This document shows, piece after piece, positions 32,938 to 37,513 of a stretch of 64,000 nucleotides of DNA. Origin of the DNA: Erythrobacter sp. SCN 62-14 (GTDB lineage Bacteria; Pseudomonadota; Alphaproteobacteria; Sphingomonadales; Sphingomonadaceae); the NCBI GenBank assembly GCA_001724215.1, contig MEDW01000001.1:64725-128724 (forward strand), given 5' to 3'. Position 1 is the stretch's first letter; the number at the start of each line of letters is the position of its first letter. Position numbers and translations under genes: made by a program. The notes under the pieces are model-generated. The model worked only from the letters and a program-made list of their open reading frames with translations, ran no database searches and had not been told where the DNA came from.

Positions 32938-34110
32938 TCAACGCGCCGCCTGCAAGGCTTCGGCCACGATCTCGTCGAAACGCGCAATGCCGCCTTCCAG
33001 TGTGCCGAGCGTGAGGTGGGTGAGCGCGCCGCTCTCCAACCCCTGGTGGCCAAGCTCTGCCGCGCGGAAATCTTCAGAAGCAAACACCCCGCCATCCAGC
33101 AACGCCCAGCTGCGCTCCCAATGATCGCGCGCTTTGTCTGAACCGGGCGCTTCGGGGATCAGCATGAAATCCTCGACCAGCGTAAGATTATGCGCCTGCG
33201 GCATCAGCACCATGACATTCACGTAATCGGGGCTCGGCACAATGATGGTGGCGGGCAGCAATTGATAGGCAAAGGTGATGACGCGGCGCAGCGCGGCCAT
33301 GTCAGAAAGATCAACGCCTGCCATCTCCTCCAGCCGCCCGACCGCCGAACGCGAATGGGGCCCGATCTGGTCGCCTGTGGTGATCCCGTCCTTGAAGAAG
33401 GGCCCGATGGTGTTCGCGTGAAGCCGGGTAACATGATAGCTTTCAAGGAAGGCATCCATGATGAGCTTCCAATTGCCCGCCACGCGGTGGGTCTTGCGAC
33501 GGAACAGGTGTGCCTCGCCAAGACCGAAGGCTGCCATGTCCTCGCCCAGTGTCATCGCATGGCTGAAATCCGCGCCTTCTTGCGGCGCAAACCAGATCAG
33601 CCCGCCCGCCTCGCAGGATGGCAATTCGGCAAGGCCATAGTCGCCCTTGTCGAGACCCGGGAAGGTCTCTGGCCGGGGCAGGGCCATCAGGCTGCCGTCA
33701 AGCCGGTAGGTCCAGGCGTGATAGGGGCACACGAGCCGCTTGGCGCAGTGCACCTCCTCGCCCTCCACCAGCCTTGTGCCGCGATGCTTGCACACGTTGA
33801 GGAACACACGCGCGCGCCCTTCGCCATCGCGGGTTATCAGCAACGGTCGTCCCGTTCCATCATAGGCAACCGCCATGCCGGGTTCAGGCAGCAGGGCAGA
33901 CGGAGCGAGCACCTGCGGCAGGCGATCAAACAGCGCGGCTTTTTCCGCCGCAAAGTGGTCAGGGCAGGTGTAGTTCATCGCCGGAACCCGGCGAACCCCT
34001 GGGTTGGGTCGCGCCGCGCCTTCGCGCAGAGCTTCTGCCAGCGCCAATTGACCCGGTGTCGGGCGGCGCTCGGGCTTCATGATTGTTGATGGTGTGGCAG
34101 CCTCGCTCAT
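32938..34110 (-). CDS. Rieske non-heme iron oxygenase alpha subunit
   Basis: Rieske CKH...CPYH motif, mononuclear Fe site [12 protein letters not shown] motif, distal Asp (SEDF). Confidence 0.92.
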
Positions 34111-34199
34111 TGCGGCGTTCCTATTTCCTCATTCCCGCTCTAGTGTGGCACGAAACGGGGCTGCGCGCCAAGCATCTTGCCCCATTGTTCGGAGTATCC

Positions 34200-35924
34200 A
34201 TGGCTGACACAGCCCCTGTCGTCCCTTCACGTCTGTCGCGTTGGCTGACTTTGCTCACCGCCTTGCGTCAGCCCAAAACGGGCTTTGTCCTTATTTTTGG
34301 TTTTGCCAGCGGACTGCCCTATGCGCTGCTCTTGGGCACGCTTTACGCTTGGCTTACCGATGCCAAGGTTGATGTTGAAACGATGGGCGTGTTCTCGCTG
34401 GTGGGGCTGGCCTATGCGTTCAAATTCCTGTGGTCGCCCGCGCTTGACCGGGTCGATTTGCCGCTCTTGAGGCGGCTCGGCAAACGCAAGCAGTGGATTG
34501 TCACGGCGCAGCTCTTGCTGGGGGCCATTCTGGTGCTGCTCTCGTTGATGAATCCGCTCACAATGCTCGGCTGGTTCTCATTGCTCGCGGGTGTGGGCGC
34601 CTTGGCGAGCGCAACGCATGACGTTGGGATTGATGCCTGGCGCGTCGATGTCGCTGATGAAAAGGCGACCATCGACATCCTCTCCACCGTTCATCAGATG
34701 GGCTACCGCATCGCGGCGCTCGTTGGCGGTGCACTGGCGCTGTTCATGGCTGAACGCATGGGGTGGGCGACAGTTTATCTCAGCATGGGGGCGATTTTGC
34801 TGGCGGTCGGCTTTGTCGGATTGTTTGCGCCTGATGCTGAAAGAAGCGCGGCAGCCAAGGCGGATGAGCGCGCCAATCTCGACACTTTGCGCCAACCTGG
34901 CCAGATTGTACCGCGGGTGCGCGGGTGGGCACTTTCGGCGGTGGCGCTGCTATGGGGCTGGGCGCTGGTGGTGGTGCTGGTGTTCATGGTGCGCTCGCTC
35001 ATTTCGAGCCCGGAAGACCGGCCCGACTCCACCGAATTTGTCGCCACCATGGGGCCACTGGTGGTGATCGCGACTGTCGTGATTCCGGGGCTCATCGCAG
35101 GCTGGCTGGAGAAAATGCGCAAGGAAGGCCGCCATGTGCTTACAGCGCCGGTGCCATCGCGCGGTGGGCTCGATGTGGCGCTCGATCACGGCTATCGCGC
35201 GCTGATCTTGCCGCTGGCTGAAATAATCGGACGGCTCAAATGGGCGGCGGTGCTGGTGATTGCGCTGGTGCTGAGCTACCGGATTACAGACGCCATCTGG
35301 GGCAGTTTTGCCTATCCCTTCTATCTCGGGGAACTGCAATACACCAAGGACGAGGTGGCGATTGCGTCGAAATTCTTTGGTGTCGGTGCGTTGCTTGTGG
35401 GCCTGGCGCTGGGAGGTGCGCTGCTCACAGTGATCGGGAGGATGATGACATTGACGCTCGGCGCGGTGATCGCGGCGCTGACCAACCTGCTCTATGCTGA
35501 TCTTGCAATTGGCGGCGCGCGGATGCAGCTGGCCAGTGACCTGACGGGTTTCACATGGCTGGCTGGATTGTTCGGAGCCGATGCCCGGCTCTCCAAGCTC
35601 ATGCTGACAATCGGGATGGAGAACATCGCGGTCGGCGTCGCAGGCGCAGCCTTTGTCGCCTATCTCTCCAGCATTGTCGCCAAGGGTTACAGCGCGGTGC
35701 AATATGCGCTTTTGTCCTCGCTAACCATGCTGGTGGGCACACTGGGACGGCCTGCGCTTGGCCAGATGATCGAGCAGCGCGGCTATTACGATGTTTTTAT
35801 CTTCACCACGCTGATCGGTTTTTTTGCCGTTGCGCTGTGCCTGATTGAATGGGTCCGGCAAGTGCGATCGGGGCGTGCAGAAAATGCTCCGCCACCAGAG
35901 CCCGAACCCGAATTCGCCGAATAG
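34200..35924 (+). CDS. ampG: AmpG family muropeptide MFS permease
   Basis: GFASGLPYALL, KFLWSP, ATHDVGIDAWR, SAVQYALLSS; GGAG SD before ATG 34200. Confidence 0.9.
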   Translation: MADTAPVVPSRLSRWLTLLTALRQPKTGFVLIFGFASGLPYALLLGTLYAWLTDAKVDVETMGVFSLVGLAYAFKFLWSPALDRVDLPLLRRLGKRKQWIVTAQLLLGAILVLLSLMNPLTMLGWFSLLAGVGALASATHDVGIDAWRVDVADEKATIDILSTVHQMGYRIAALVGGALALFMAERMGWATVYLSMGAILLAVGFVGLFAPDAERSAAAKADERANLDTLRQPGQIVPRVRGWALSAVALLWGWALVVVLVFMVRSLISSPEDRPDSTEFVATMGPLVVIATVVIPGLIAGWLEKMRKEGRHVLTAPVPSRGGLDVALDHGYRALILPLAEIIGRLKWAAVLVIALVLSYRITDAIWGSFAYPFYLGELQYTKDEVAIASKFFGVGALLVGLALGGALLTVIGRMMTLTLGAVIAALTNLLYADLAIGGARMQLASDLTGFTWLAGLFGADARLSKLMLTIGMENIAVGVAGAAFVAYLSSIVAKGYSAVQYALLSSLTMLVGTLGRPALGQMIEQRGYYDVFIFTTLIGFFAVALCLIEWVRQVRSGRAENAPPPEPEPEFAE

Positions 35925-35968
35925 GGCAGGGTTTGCCCTCTCCGCATCGTCTGCGCCACCTGTACCCC

Positions 35969-36172
35969 GCCTTCAAGCAGCGTAAGCGGTAGGGCGTTTT
36001 CGGTTTACGCATCGCATCCGCGATGCGATGTCCTCGCGGCTATGCGGGCAAGCTCGCGCCGCTGCGGGCGGCCGGTCGACCTTGCGGTTGCTGCGCAACC
36101 GTTTCCCCCGCCCCCAAGCAGCGTAAGCGGTAGCGCAACAAAAACGCCCTCAAGCAGCGTAAGCGGTAGGGC
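35969..36172. repeat. Three 27-bp direct repeats (19-bp invariant core CAAGCAGCGTAAGCGGTAG) plus internal palindromes, downstream of tRNA-Arg
   Basis: Copies at 35969-35995, 36110-36136 and 36146-36172; the core is identical in all three. The spacer has hairpins CATCGCAT/ATGCGATG (36010-36030) and CGGTTGC/GCAACCG (36085-36101). Confidence 0.92.
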
Positions 36173-36182
36173 CGAAAGAACG

Positions 36183-36256
36183 TGTCCCCGACAGGATTCG
36201 AACCTGTGGCCTTCGGATTAGGAATCCGACGCTCTATCCTGCTGAGCTACGGGGAC
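36183..36256 (-). tRNA. tRNA-Arg(CCT), CCA not encoded
   Basis: Reverse complement GTCCCCGTAGCTCAGCAGGATAGAGCGTCGGATTCCTAATCCGAAGGCCACAGGTTCGAATCCTGTCGGGGACA. Anticodon loop TTCCTAA, canonical GTTCGAATC T-loop. Confidence 0.96.
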
Positions 36257-36304
36257 GCGGGCCACGCTCTATCGCTGAACGCTGCGCTGTGCAATCGCTT
36301 CGCG

Positions 36305-37513
36305 TCATGCGCCTTGGCTGGTTGTCCCTTGTCTGTCAGCACGTAACGCGAGCACCAGAATGCTAAGCGAAAAGCCTAACAACAGCGCCGAGGTGCCTGC
36401 CCAACCTGCGGCATCATAGATCGCGGTGCCCAGCATGCTCCCGACCGCGCCGCCCAGAAACATCGCCACGATATAGAAAGTCGTCAACCGGGTGCGGATT
36501 TCCGGGGCGAGCGAGAGGAACATCATGCGCCCTGTTACATCAATGGTTGGCCCGACCATATTCACCAGCACCAGCGGCACCAGCAGCGTGAAAAGATTGA
36601 AACCAAGCGGGTAGAACAGGCTAACCCCTGCCACTTGCACCATCGCCACGATCAGGCGCGCGCGCCGCGGGCCCACTTTGTCCGCCCATCGTCCCAACCG
36701 CGGGGTGGAAACAATGCTCACTGCGGCAATCGCCGCCAGATAGCCGACGACATCCGTGCCATAGCCCATTCGCGCGCTGGTAAGATGCAGGGCGAGCGCC
36801 AGCCAGGTCGCGGTGAAGCTGGCAAAGTTGAGGCCCTGCATCAGGGCTGATGCGCGCATTTCGCGGTGTTCGCGCGCCAGCTTGAACACCGAAGCAATCA
36901 GGTTGGTATAGCTTTCTCGTGGCGGTTTGGCGCTGGCCAGTTCGCTTTTCATCGCAAATGGCAGGAACAGGCTTACCCCCGCCATCAGCACAAAGCCGCC
37001 CCAATAAACCAGCCGCCAATCAGCGTGTTCAGCGATCACGCCGGCACCCACTCGCGCCACCAGAATGCCGAAAATGACACCCGCAGTGAGCAGCGCCGTG
37101 ACTTGCCCCAATCGTTCGGGCGCGACCCGTTTGGAAGCAAAGGCCGGAATGAGATAGGGGGCAATCGTAACAAACCCAAGCAAGGTTGAAGCAAGCGTGA
37201 AAGCCACCAGCCCTTCGGCCAGCGCCATGGCCAGCATGAACACAGTCTGGCAGGCCACAAAAATGATGCACAAATTGCGGTTGGAATAGCGATCGCCCAG
37301 CGGCAGCAGCAGCAGGATGCCCAATGCAAGCGCCAGTTGATTGAGCGCCGGGACAATCCCGATCCGCGCTTCGCTGACATCAAAATCGCGCGCCACTTCG
37401 CCGATGATCGGGTGGATGTAATAGGCATTGGCCGTCACCACCGCGACGCACACCGTCAGCGCCCATTCCTGCGCGCGGGAAAGATATCGGGCGGGGGCGA
37501 GGGAAGGGGTCAT
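36305..37513 (-). CDS. MFS transporter (12 TM)
   Basis: [13 protein letters not shown] motif A (LGDRYSNR; [11 protein letters not shown]), about 12 hydrophobic segments. Confidence 0.9.

What the first reader, a model, noticed from the sequence alone, without database searches (positions are those of the whole stretch)
35923..36180. tRNA-Arg-linked array of three GUAA-tetraloop hairpin repeats with a nested palindromic insert
Seen: three 27-bp units g-ccct-CAAGCAGCGTAAGCGGTAG-ggc (35969, 36110, 36146) with a 19-bp invariant core. On the + strand each can fold as stem / 3-nt bulge / stem / GUAA (GNRA) loop; the variant in copy 1 keeps pairing by G-U and copy 2 is degenerate. AGGGCGTTTT (35991-36000) and AAAACGCCCT (36141-36150) are perfect inverted repeats enclosing a 140-nt segment with two more strong hairpins. 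On the minus strand the tRNA-proximal copy is followed by a U-run, like a terminator. Inference: a REP/MITE-like element that targets or regenerates tRNA 3' regions, or a processed small RNA with repeated protein-binding hairpins. No feature class I can name explains it.
Basis: partly seen in the sequence, partly recalled or inferred. Interest (0 to 1): 0.62.

Follow-up and report, generated by a model that had tools for sequence, protein, structure and literature searches.

The report
Tiny mobile hairpin repeat family
The three repeats beside the tRNA gene are copies of a roughly 35-base hairpin module that is scattered through this genome and occurs, with the same 19-21-base core, in about 6-7% of sampled Alphaproteobacteria and Actinomycetota; it behaves like very small selfish DNA with no known mobilising enzyme, and the tRNA is only a chance neighbour.

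Summary
Three exact copies of CAAGCAGCGTAAGCGGTAG lie at 35974, 36115 and 36151; the inverted 10-mers and the hairpins in between are there too.

The repeats are not specific to this locus or to tRNAs. The genome holds about 45 units at about 28 loci, and only 2 loci touch a tRNA. The same core, in a stem whose sequence changes but stays complementary, occurs in 19 of 301 sampled Alphaproteobacteria and 20 of 301 Actinomycetota. Some genomes carry at least 68 copies.

The module is a hairpin plus a short A/C-rich tail, 33-40 nt in all. It is a discrete insertion:
- a clean 35-nt block between fliQ and fliR, where a relative about 94% identical in the flanks has overlapping stop and start codons;
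- a 37-nt block that frameshifts an IS256-type transposase gene;
- copies nested in the loop of a second repeat;
- in-frame arrays inside outer-membrane-like genes.

The 113-nt "insert" in the window belongs to that second family (B), which has about 29 copies and is confined to the genus.

No RAYT, flanking Ssn-type nuclease or PDDEXK_3 gene accompanies the repeats, and Rfam has no match.

Verdict: an undescribed REP-like miniature mobile hairpin family with an unknown mobilising factor. The tRNA-targeting reading is not supported.

The parts
34083..35924 (+). AmpG-like MFS permease gene. Its stop codon lies 44 nt upstream of unit A1. The units are in the sense orientation relative to this gene.
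   Evidence: ORF. Pfam MFS_1 and Acatn.
35923..35939 (+). Small hairpin GGGCA-GGGTT-TGCCC overlapping the stop codon. It is not part of family A or B.
   Evidence: Sequence. Fold.
35968..35996 (+). Family A unit 1: CGCCTT-CAAGCAGCGTAAGCGGT-AGGGCG. The hairpin is intact, with one G.U pair in the outer stem. Its usual A-rich tail is missing, and element B follows directly.
   Evidence: CM R1 match at C1:100688-100726, 43 bits.
35996..36106 (+). Family B element, the 'nested palindromic insert'. It has a T-rich leader, hairpin h1 (GCATCGCATC/GATGCGATG), the TCCTCGC motif, hairpin h2, the conserved block GCTGCGGGCGGCCGGTCGACCTTGCGG, and hairpin h4 (GGTTGC/GCAACC).
   Evidence: nhmmer match at C1:100720-100830, E = 2e-24, one of 29 copies in the genome. 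Outside this genome it was seen only in three genus mates. No Rfam match.
36109..36144 (+). Family A unit 2: exact core, degenerate outer stem (CGCCCC / AGCGC), tail AACAAAAA.
   Evidence: It does not fold.
36145..36180 (+). Family A unit 3: GCCCT-core-AGGGC hairpin at 36146-36172, plus tail CGAAAGAA. It is the best-scoring unit in the window.
   Evidence: CM R1 match, 50.4 bits.
36144..36160 (-). Weak terminator-like site on the - strand, downstream of tRNA-Arg. An alternative 5-pair hairpin is followed by TTTTGTTG, a run supplied by the complement of unit 2's A-rich tail.
   Evidence: This is a consensus match only.
36182..36256 (-). tRNA-Arg(CCT). It is a neighbour of the array, not part of the element.
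   Evidence: ARAGORN. Rfam tRNA, 74.9 bits. Genus mates have no array downstream of this tRNA.

Best explanation
The three units belong to a widespread, uncatalogued family of miniature REP-like repeats, here called family A.

Each module is 33-40 nt. It has a short G+C-rich stem whose sequence varies but stays complementary. The stem always closes with C-G and U-A pairs. It encloses a constant asymmetric core, 5'-CAAG(C/U)AGCG ... AGCG(G/A)U. In the fold this gives a CAA bulge, a G.U pair, a Y-R pair, an A.G mismatch, two G-C/C-G pairs, and a variable apex that may be a GNNA loop, a GNA loop or an extra helix. A 6-10-nt A/C-rich tail follows the hairpin.

The module is copied into new places as one discrete block without target-site duplication. 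It lands mostly where insertions are tolerated or where DNA is palindromic: 3' ends of genes, junctions between genes, and loops of other hairpins. It then multiplies locally head to tail, which gives the 36-nt period.

In this window, three A units and one family B element have piled up. They sit in a lineage-specific junction between an AmpG-like gene and tRNA-Arg.

Shown here:
- the family is dispersed through the genome;
- the hairpin covaries;
- filled and empty sites exist in close relatives;
- copies nest inside other repeats;
- the distribution is patchy across two phyla.

Inferred:
- the folded single strand, most likely ssDNA, is what gets recognised, because the conserved G.U and A.G pairs exist on one strand only;
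- a sequence-specific factor acting in trans explains why the core stays constant.

That factor was not identified. At this locus the array probably has no dedicated function. At most it supplies 3' hairpins to the AmpG-like mRNA and a weak terminator for the tRNA.
For: Family size and spread:
- Own genome: 45 CM matches and 38 full nhmmer units at 28 loci.
- 13 of 61 relatives carry the core with at most 2 mismatches, one of them from another family of the same order with the same 36-nt period.
- 19 of 301 Alphaproteobacteria across about 15 families carry it, and 20 of 301 Actinomycetota.
- Three Actinomycetota genomes have at least 49, 68 and 20 units.

Hairpin:
- Of 50 exact-core hits preceded by CT, 46 have at least 3 complementary variable pairs. 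Of 75 other hits, 3 do.
- On the alignment, 93% of cells pair and the covariation score is 0.356 against 0.097 in shuffles, 0 of 500 reaching it.
- The same stem variant GTCC/GGAC with the same core is present in this genome and in an Actinomycetota genome.

Insertion:
- L355 carries a clean 35-nt block between the fliQ stop and the fliR start. In L357 these overlap as TGATG, the flanks are about 94% identical, and there is no target duplication.
- Among 12 junctions sampled without regard to the core, 5 are empty, 2 have intact units, 1 has a degenerate unit and 3 have a hairpin without the core.
- A 37-nt unit sits between Pfam Transposase_mut positions 252 and 254 and shifts the frame by +1.
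- Three B elements carry a reversed A unit at the same point of their h3 loop. Thirteen B copies have the plain 10-nt loop.
- Arrays lie in frame inside three paralogous OMP-like genes.

Context and absence elsewhere:
- In the own genome, 9 loci lie between convergent genes, 9 between co-directional genes and 0 between divergent genes.
- The array is absent from the orthologous positions in genus mates.
- Rfam has no family for it.
Against: No mobilising enzyme was found, so the mechanism is inferred.
- Y1/RAYT transposases are absent from 10 of 10 carrier genomes. The own genome's only Y1 gene is part of an IS605-type tnpA/tnpB pair.
- Small GIY-YIG genes are not flanked by A units; only 1 of 9 has one within 1.5 kb.
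- PDDEXK_3 is present in 1 of 10 carriers.

Other points against:
- A 19-21-nt core identical across two phyla is unusual for selfish repeats. It could instead reflect a conserved cellular function.
- Orientation shows no strong bias relative to genes (13 sense, 7 antisense) or to GC skew (18 versus 10). Neither a replication-strand nor a transcription-strand mechanism is therefore demonstrated.
- No arrays were found in plasmid or phage collections, so the vehicle of transfer between phyla is unknown.
- My gene calls are crude.
- No transposition event was observed between strains of one species.
Confidence: 0.62

Rival explanations
1. Functional RNA module. The hairpin is a protein-binding, or RNA-processing and stabilising, element in 3' UTRs and spacers between cistrons. 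Tandem arrays would act as multivalent platforms, and the A/C-rich linkers as single-stranded binding tracts for factors such as Hfq or Rho. On this reading its spread would reflect selection rather than mobility.
For: - The conserved non-canonical features (G.U in 63 of 66 units, the A.G mismatch, the CAA bulge) exist on one strand only.
- The core is invariant across two phyla while the stems covary.
- The units avoid divergent promoter regions in the own genome.
- In some Alphaproteobacteria the core sits in hairpins flanked by an A-tract and a U-tract, like intrinsic terminators.
- There is a mild excess of sense orientation, 13 to 7.
Against: - At the fliQ|fliR junction the unit is antisense to the operon. 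It is absent, degenerate or replaced in 10 of 12 close relatives.
- Units occur inside ORFs, inside a transposase gene and reversed inside another repeat.
- Neighbouring genes show no common function: ruvA, tuf, glmS, panB, sucC and fli genes among others.
- The taxonomic distribution is patchy, about 6-7% of genomes.
- The orientation bias is not significant.
Confidence: 0.22
2. One reading: an element that targets or regenerates tRNA 3' regions. It would be a remnant of an attachment site for an element that integrates at tRNA genes.
For: Two arrays in this genome abut the 3' end of a tRNA gene in the same relative orientation: C1 at tRNA-Arg and C78 at a tRNA-Lys-like gene. Two Rhodobacterales units lie just upstream of tRNA-fMet.
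Against: - About 26 of 28 loci have no tRNA nearby.
- The units share no sequence with the tRNA.
- Genus mates have no array at tRNA-Arg(CCT).
- No integrase gene was seen among the ORFs flanking the array in the window.
Confidence: 0.03
3. A local slippage duplication of a terminator hairpin, confined to this locus.
For: The units are arranged head to tail with a 36-nt period. A terminator-like site lies on the - strand.
Against: The core is present at about 28 loci in this genome and in two phyla. Slippage may explain growth within an array but not the family.
Confidence: 0.02
4. An antitoxin-type RNA array like those of type III toxin-antitoxin systems (ToxI-like 36-nt tandem repeats), or a sponge RNA.
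For: The 36-nt period and the tandem structured units resemble ToxI (my own knowledge of ToxIN).
Against: - Neither neighbour looks like a toxin gene: one is an MFS permease gene, the other a tRNA.
- There are dozens of loci per genome rather than one.
- Many units are single copies.
- Some units lie inside ORFs.
Confidence: 0.02

Closest known systems
REP / REPIN elements with their RAYT transposase (PMC2817692, PMC3116915, PMC3333891, PMC3733652)
   Same: Both are short G+C-rich imperfect palindromes. Both are dispersed mostly outside genes and enriched at 3' ends and between convergent genes. Both have sub-families whose stems differ by complementary changes and show G.T pairs. Both form clusters and mosaics with other repeats (compare BIMEs). 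Family A also contains a GTAG tetranucleotide.
   Different: - Units are arranged head to tail, not as inverted pairs.
- GTAG lies inside the 3' half of the hairpin instead of outside its 5' end.
- The conserved part is the 18-22-nt 'loop' rather than the stem.
- No Y1/RAYT gene is present in 10 of 10 carrier genomes.
- Copy number here is about 45.
- The same core is shared by two phyla.
NTS / Ssn-related motifs (SRM) with SsnA GIY-YIG ssDNA nucleases (PMC11893778)
   Same: Both are hairpin repeats of about 30 nt with an oriented, non-palindromic conserved part. Both are present in hundreds of copies in some genomes, patchily, across several phyla. SRMs are a precedent for a dedicated small enzyme that recognises the folded single strand.
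   Different: - The sequences are unrelated: NTS is CGTCATTCCCGCG..GCGGGAATC.
- Small GIY-YIG genes in carrier genomes are not flanked by A units.
- The own genome's small GIY-YIG gene is flanked by a different hairpin.
- The high-copy Actinomycetota genomes yielded no strong match in a small GIY-YIG frame; their strong matches lie in open frames of 412-776 aa.
Small dispersed repeats (SDR) of cyanobacteria (Elhai et al. 2008, Genome Res 18:1484; listed as reference 43 in PMC3116915; content recalled from memory because the paper is not held)
   Same: Both are very small mobile units of a few tens of nucleotides. Both are palindromic, insert into one another, and have no associated transposase. 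This is the closest analogue in behaviour.
   Different: The sequence and the host phyla differ. Family A has a constant asymmetric core inside a variable stem, plus a tail. I could not check SDR details in the text.
Rickettsia palindromic elements (RPE; my own knowledge, Ogata et al. 2000)
   Same: Both are palindromic repeats that can sit in frame inside protein-coding genes, as in the G280 OMP-like paralogues.
   Different: RPEs are about 100-150 bp and restricted to Rickettsia. Family A units are about 35 nt and mostly intergenic.
ToxI-type antitoxin RNA arrays of type III toxin-antitoxin systems (my own knowledge)
   Same: Both are tandem 36-nt structured units.
   Different: Family A has no adjacent toxin gene, many loci per genome, and many single units.

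Membership tests
REP/REPIN-RAYT system | Short (20-40 bp) G+C-rich imperfect palindrome repeated through the genome, mainly outside genes | tested here: met
   27-29-nt hairpins, about 45 units at about 28 loci. Context: 9 loci between convergent genes, 9 between co-directional genes, 0 between divergent genes.
REP/REPIN-RAYT system | A RAYT (Y1 transposase, PF01797) gene in the genome, typically flanked by the REPs | tested here: not met
   0 of 10 carrier genomes have any PF01797 match. The own genome's single match is an IS605-type tnpA next to tnpB.
REP/REPIN-RAYT system | Conserved GTAG (or CGTC) tetranucleotide at one terminus, outside the stem (PMC3733652) | tested here: inconclusive
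   GTAG is invariant, but it forms part of the 3' strand of the hairpin..GCG-GTAG-stem.
REP/REPIN-RAYT system | Inverted pairs (REPIN/BIME organisation) | tested here: not met
   Arrays are head to tail with periods of 32-47 nt.
Ssn/SRM (NTS-like) system | Repeat matches the SRM consensus and flanks an ssnA-type small GIY-YIG gene | tested here: not met
   The core is unrelated to the NTS sequence quoted in PMC11893778. Only 1 of 9 small GIY-YIG loci has an A unit within 1.5 kb.
MITE (DDE-transposon derived) | Terminal inverted repeats plus a target-site duplication; usually more than 50 bp | tested here: not met
   The filled/empty pair L355/L357 shows a 35-nt block with no duplication. The transposase insertion shows none either.
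Type III toxin-antitoxin antitoxin array (ToxI-like) | Tandem repeat array immediately upstream of a ToxN/AbiQ-type toxin gene | tested here: not met
   The neighbours are an MFS permease gene and tRNA-Arg. The family has many loci per genome.
Intrinsic terminator | G+C-rich hairpin followed directly by a U-run on the transcribed strand | tested here: inconclusive
   One weak - strand match lies at 36160-36144. On the + strand no unit is followed by a U-run here. In other taxa units are embedded in hairpins with A- and U-tracts. Termination itself was not testable.
Any Rfam 15 family | Covariance-model match | tested here: not met
   cmscan of 35000-37000 at E up to 10 returns only the tRNA and chance matches, and none of these is a match to an A unit or to the B element.
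MIRU (mycobacterial interspersed repetitive units) | 40-100-bp tandem units in operon spacers of mycobacteria, overlapping stop and start codons (from memory) | tested here: inconclusive
   Actinomycetota arrays do sit at TGA/ATG junctions. Mycobacterium gordonae has no R1 match. MIRU sequences themselves were not available for comparison.

The most novel reading that the evidence does not exclude
Family A is the footprint of a new kind of ultra-small mobile element, a roughly 35-nt hairpin-plus-tail cassette. On this reading it is moved by a dedicated, still unidentified enzyme. That enzyme would recognise the constant asymmetric core on a folded single strand and paste the cassette into exposed loops and gene junctions. 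Enzyme and cassette would have been exchanged between Alphaproteobacteria and Actinomycetota. The enzyme would be neither a Y1/RAYT transposase nor an Ssn nuclease.
Probability: 0.3. Interest if true: 0.8.

Novelty: new variant of a known kind. Interest (0 to 1): 0.6.

Why it matters
Small hairpin repeats shape bacterial genomes. They break synteny, terminate or stabilise transcripts, seed new peptide segments and serve as landing pads for other elements. Only two partnerships between such repeats and an enzyme have been worked out: REP with RAYT, and NTS with Ssn.

Family A has a core that is identical across two phyla, while its stem covaries and its apex varies. That pattern points to a third specific recognition system.

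Four features make it tractable:
- The module is tiny.
- Filled and empty sites exist in close relatives.
- Some genomes carry dozens of copies.
- The conserved internal loop is an obvious bait for pull-downs.

A site-specific enzyme acting on folded single strands could also be useful as a tool, as the Ssn work argues (PMC11893778).

For annotation, the family explains otherwise puzzling tandem repeats in spacers. It also explains serine-rich 12-residue repeats in some proteins.

Tried and rejected
- Rfam search of the region: nothing but the tRNA.
- RAYT hypothesis: rejected.
- Ssn/GIY-YIG partner: small GIY-YIG genes exist in several alphaproteobacterial carriers but are not flanked by A units. 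The high-copy Actinomycetota genomes yielded no strong match in a small frame.
- PDDEXK_3 partner: rejected.
- Common neighbouring gene: clustering ORFs around 40 loci and then 158 loci gave only housekeeping paralogues and one orthologous flagellar locus.
- Coding repeat: one frame is open and is used in G280. But periods of 32-47 nt occur, and the invariant bases include third codon positions, so the repeat is not primarily coding.
- Replication-strand bias: 18 versus 10 by local GC skew, not informative.
- Transcription-strand bias: 13 versus 7, not significant.
- Plasmid and phage collections: no array match, and a single viral-contig hit.
- Literature searches by 8-mer and 9-mer were useless. 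Searches on REPs in sphingomonads found nothing relevant. The SDR paper is not held.
- I first took 76 genome-wide hits to GTCATGCTGAA for a third high-copy family. The window control shows that count is at chance.
- Resemblances to the RfaH ops site (GCGGTAG), to lambda and P22 boxB stems, to the 11-nt tetraloop receptor and to MIRU were considered from memory. None was supported by context, and I make no claim on them.
- Earlier notes of this scan held nothing on this motif.
Full report
**1. The observation**

Between the stop codon of an AmpG-like MFS permease gene (34083-35924, +) and tRNA-Arg(CCT) (36182-36256, -) lie three exact copies of CAAGCAGCGTAAGCGGTAG. They start at 35974, 36115 and 36151. 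No shuffle of 100 gave three matches.

They sit in 36-nt units at 35968-36003, 36109-36144 and 36145-36180. The inverted 10-mers AGGGCGTTTT and AAAACGCCCT are real.

Unit 2 has lost its outer stem. Folding energy alone is unremarkable. The whole spacer folds better than shuffles only on the - strand (z = -2.7).

**2. It is a genome-wide family, not a tRNA feature**

The core recurs elsewhere in the assembly, which has 2.8 Mb in 136 contigs; the window is C1:64725-128724.

A covariance model built from 66 distinct units finds 45 matches in the genome. nhmmer finds 38 full-length units at 28 loci. Most local copies have an 18-nt core with a three-base apex: CAAG[C/T]AGCG[A/C]AGCG[G/A]TAG. The GUAA form in the window is the minority.

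With a home-made gene caller, the loci fall as follows:
- 9 between convergent genes;
- 9 between co-directional genes, 6 in sense and 3 antisense;
- 0 between divergent genes.

Only two loci adjoin a tRNA: this one, and C78 next to a tRNA-Lys-like gene.

In genus mates the AmpG-like gene is followed directly by a convergent folC, with no array and no tRNA. In this genome folC lies on another contig. tRNA-Arg(CCT) in genus mates has no array downstream. The tRNA linkage is therefore incidental, and the junction is lineage-specific.

**3. The hairpin is real and the core is constant across phyla**

An exact-pattern scan of one genome per species returned more than 117 stretches. Chance predicts about 70 for 17 specified bases, by my estimate.

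True members are easy to recognise. When CT precedes the core, 46 of 50 hits have at least three complementary bases on either side. Among the other hits, 3 of 75 do.

The stems differ widely: GCCC, CGCC, GCGC, GGCC, GTCC, GCGAC, GCGGC, GGGCC and others. They always pair. The closing C-G and U-A pairs and the core do not change.

On the stem-selected alignment, 93% of cells pair. The covariation score is 0.356 against 0.097 in shuffles, with 0 of 500 shuffles reaching it. All slid registers collapse.

Inside the core, G.U is kept in 63 of 66 units. The next pair switches between C-G, U.G and U-A.

The apex is free. The two middle loop bases take almost any value. Other genomes have 3-nt loops or an extra helix of up to about 20 nt. 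What is conserved is the basal asymmetric internal loop, on one strand only.

Members occur in these groups:
- Sphingomonadales, Caulobacterales, Rhodobacterales, Methyloceanibacter, Rhizomicrobium-like bacteria and other Alphaproteobacteria;
- Nitriliruptorales, Egibacteraceae and other Actinomycetota.

In even samples, 19 of 301 Alphaproteobacteria and 20 of 301 Actinomycetota are positive. Expansions reach at least 49, 68 and 20 units in three Actinomycetota genomes. One stem variant, GTCC-core-GGAC, is identical in this genome and in one of those genomes.

Rfam 15 has no match. Arrays are absent from the plasmid and phage collections, and one hit occurs in viral contigs.

**4. It behaves as a discrete inserted block**

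(a) *fliQ|fliR junction.* Eleven loci from Rhizomicrobium-like bacteria share a unit between fliQ and fliR, antisense to the operon. Their flanks are 74-84% identical for most pairs, and their stems differ by compensatory changes.

Those loci had been found through the core itself. The junctions were:
- 5 empty, with a spacer of 0-10 nt or overlapping genes;
- 2 with an intact unit;
- 1 with a degenerate unit;
- 3 with a hairpin but no core;
- 1 unrelated.

L355 and L357 are about 94% identical in the flanks. Where L357 reads TGATG, with stop and start overlapping, L355 has TGA + 34 nt + ATG. The net insertion is 35 nt, consisting of the hairpin and an A6 tail, with no target duplication.

(b) *Transposase gene.* In an IS256-family transposase gene found in three assemblies, a 37-nt unit sits between Pfam Transposase_mut positions 252 and 254 and shifts the frame by +1. 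The insertion point is at the centre of a near-palindrome, GGCAGCGC|TSCC.

(c) *Nesting.* Three family B elements in this genome carry a reversed A unit at the same point of one hairpin loop. Thirteen B copies have the plain 10-nt loop, and five or six have a different 22-nt filler.

(d) *Inside genes.* In a 1.7-Mb alphaproteobacterial genome, arrays of 36-37-nt units lie in frame just after the signal peptide of three paralogous OMP-like proteins. They encode repeats such as LPSSSVAIGQNI.

(e) *Terminator loops.* In several Alphaproteobacteria the core sits in the loop of hairpins flanked by an A-tract and a U-tract.

**5. The 'nested insert'**

Window 35996-36106 belongs to a second repeat, family B, with 29 nhmmer matches in this genome. 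Its parts, in order, are:
- a T-rich leader;
- a variable hairpin;
- AATCCTCGC;
- a variable hairpin;
- the conserved block GCTGCGGGCGGSCRGTCGSCCTTGCGG;
- a variable hairpin.

B often lies next to A units, in either orientation. Outside this genome I found it only in three genus mates.

One is unit 1's 3' stem plus B's T-rich leader. The other is unit 2's A-rich tail plus unit 3's 5' stem.

**6. Search for a partner**

Y1/RAYT transposases are absent from 10 of 10 carriers. The own genome's only Y1 gene belongs to an IS605-type tnpA/tnpB pair.

They exist in several alphaproteobacterial carriers and not in four A-poor genus mates. But only 1 of 9 has an A unit nearby, and the high-copy Actinomycetota genomes yielded no strong match in a small frame. 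The own-genome copy is flanked by its own, different hairpin.

PDDEXK_3 is present in 1 of 10 carriers. No protein family recurs next to the units other than orthologous neighbours.

Orientation is not strongly tied to transcription (13 versus 7) or to GC skew (18 versus 10).

**7. Interpretation**

The data fit a REP-like miniature mobile hairpin best. The family is dispersed and locally amplified. It is patchy across lineages and polymorphic between close relatives. It nests in other palindromes, is tolerated in frame inside genes, and decays in some lineages.

Membership in the REP-RAYT and Ssn-SRM systems fails on their defining enzyme. The family also differs in architecture: a constant loop, a variable stem, a tail, and head-to-tail arrays.

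The constant core and the one-strand-only non-canonical pairs argue for recognition of a folded single strand by a specific factor. Whether that strand is DNA or RNA is not settled. I favour ssDNA because units occur antisense in operons and reversed inside other repeats.

A purely functional RNA reading keeps about 0.2 probability.

At the window locus itself nothing points to a dedicated role. The weak - strand terminator-like site and the 3' hairpins for the AmpG-like mRNA are plausible side effects.

**8. Limits**

- Gene calls are crude.
- Counts in large samples are capped at 22 scored candidates per genome.
- The alignment used for the covariation counts was stem-selected. The unbiased check is.
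- The literature search covered only the held library, so 'undescribed' means not found there and not in Rfam 15.

Noticed in passing
window 35996-36106; also G000 C18:13160-13266, C12:9966-10074, C8:17886-17990 and about 25 more: Family B is a repeat of about 100 nt with three variable, compensating hairpins joined by conserved single-stranded blocks (AATCCTCGC and GCTGCGGGCGGSCRGTCGSCCTTGCGG). It has no Rfam match and was seen only in this genus. It could be a small structured RNA or a mosaic element in its own right.
   Followed up: partly
G000 C4:8052, C49:6629, C45:13113, C14:29799, C56:9636: There is a third tiny module. The loop of B's GGGCG/CGCCC hairpin sometimes holds a 22-nt filler, GGCGCC..TTGGCGCC. 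At C4:8052 the piece GTCTTTTGGCGCC is tandemly repeated.
   Followed up: no
G000 C12:12460-12870 (outside the window): A 105-residue GIY-YIG protein gene (Pfam E = 4.5e-13) is flanked on both sides by inverted copies of the hairpin GTCATGCTGAAC..GTTTCAGCATC. The layout resembles that of Ssn nucleases. The hairpin's 11-mer is not over-represented elsewhere in the genome.
   Followed up: partly
L146 5112-8639 (G280:C1, about 1.627-1.631 Mb): Three tandem paralogous genes encode proteins of about 340-400 residues with a signal peptide and a C-terminal ..GYQF, and none has a Pfam match. Each carries 1-7 in-frame A units (PSSSVAIGQN repeats) right after the signal peptide.
   Followed up: partly
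L050, L079, L128: Nearly the same IS256-family transposase pseudogene, carrying the same 37-nt A insertion, appears in assemblies labelled Chloroflexi (Ardenticatenia) and Gammaproteobacteria. This indicates either recent transfer of the IS between phyla or binning contamination.
   Followed up: no
window 35925-36181 compared with L152-L161: There is a synteny break exactly at the repeat mosaic. In at least five genus mates the AmpG-like gene is followed by a convergent folC with almost no spacer. Here folC is on contig C83, and the AmpG-like gene faces tRNA-Arg and another MFS gene.
   Followed up: partly
G000 C78:7773-7844: A second array of degenerate A units ends a few bases from the 3' end of a tRNA gene on the opposite strand (anticodon region reads TTT, Lys-like). 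The geometry is the same as at tRNA-Arg.
   Followed up: no
window 36229-36238 and 36264-36273: The 10-mer ACGCTCTATC occurs once inside the tRNA-Arg gene and again 35 nt further on, just beyond its 5' end (repeat finder family D5). It may be chance.
   Followed up: no
G000 C107:1-1100: An IS200/IS605-type element has divergent tnpA (Y1) and tnpB genes at the end of a 5.3-kb contig.
   Followed up: no
L077 and L132 (Rhodobacterales): In two different genomes a single A unit lies 8-12 nt upstream of a tRNA-fMet gene.
   Followed up: no
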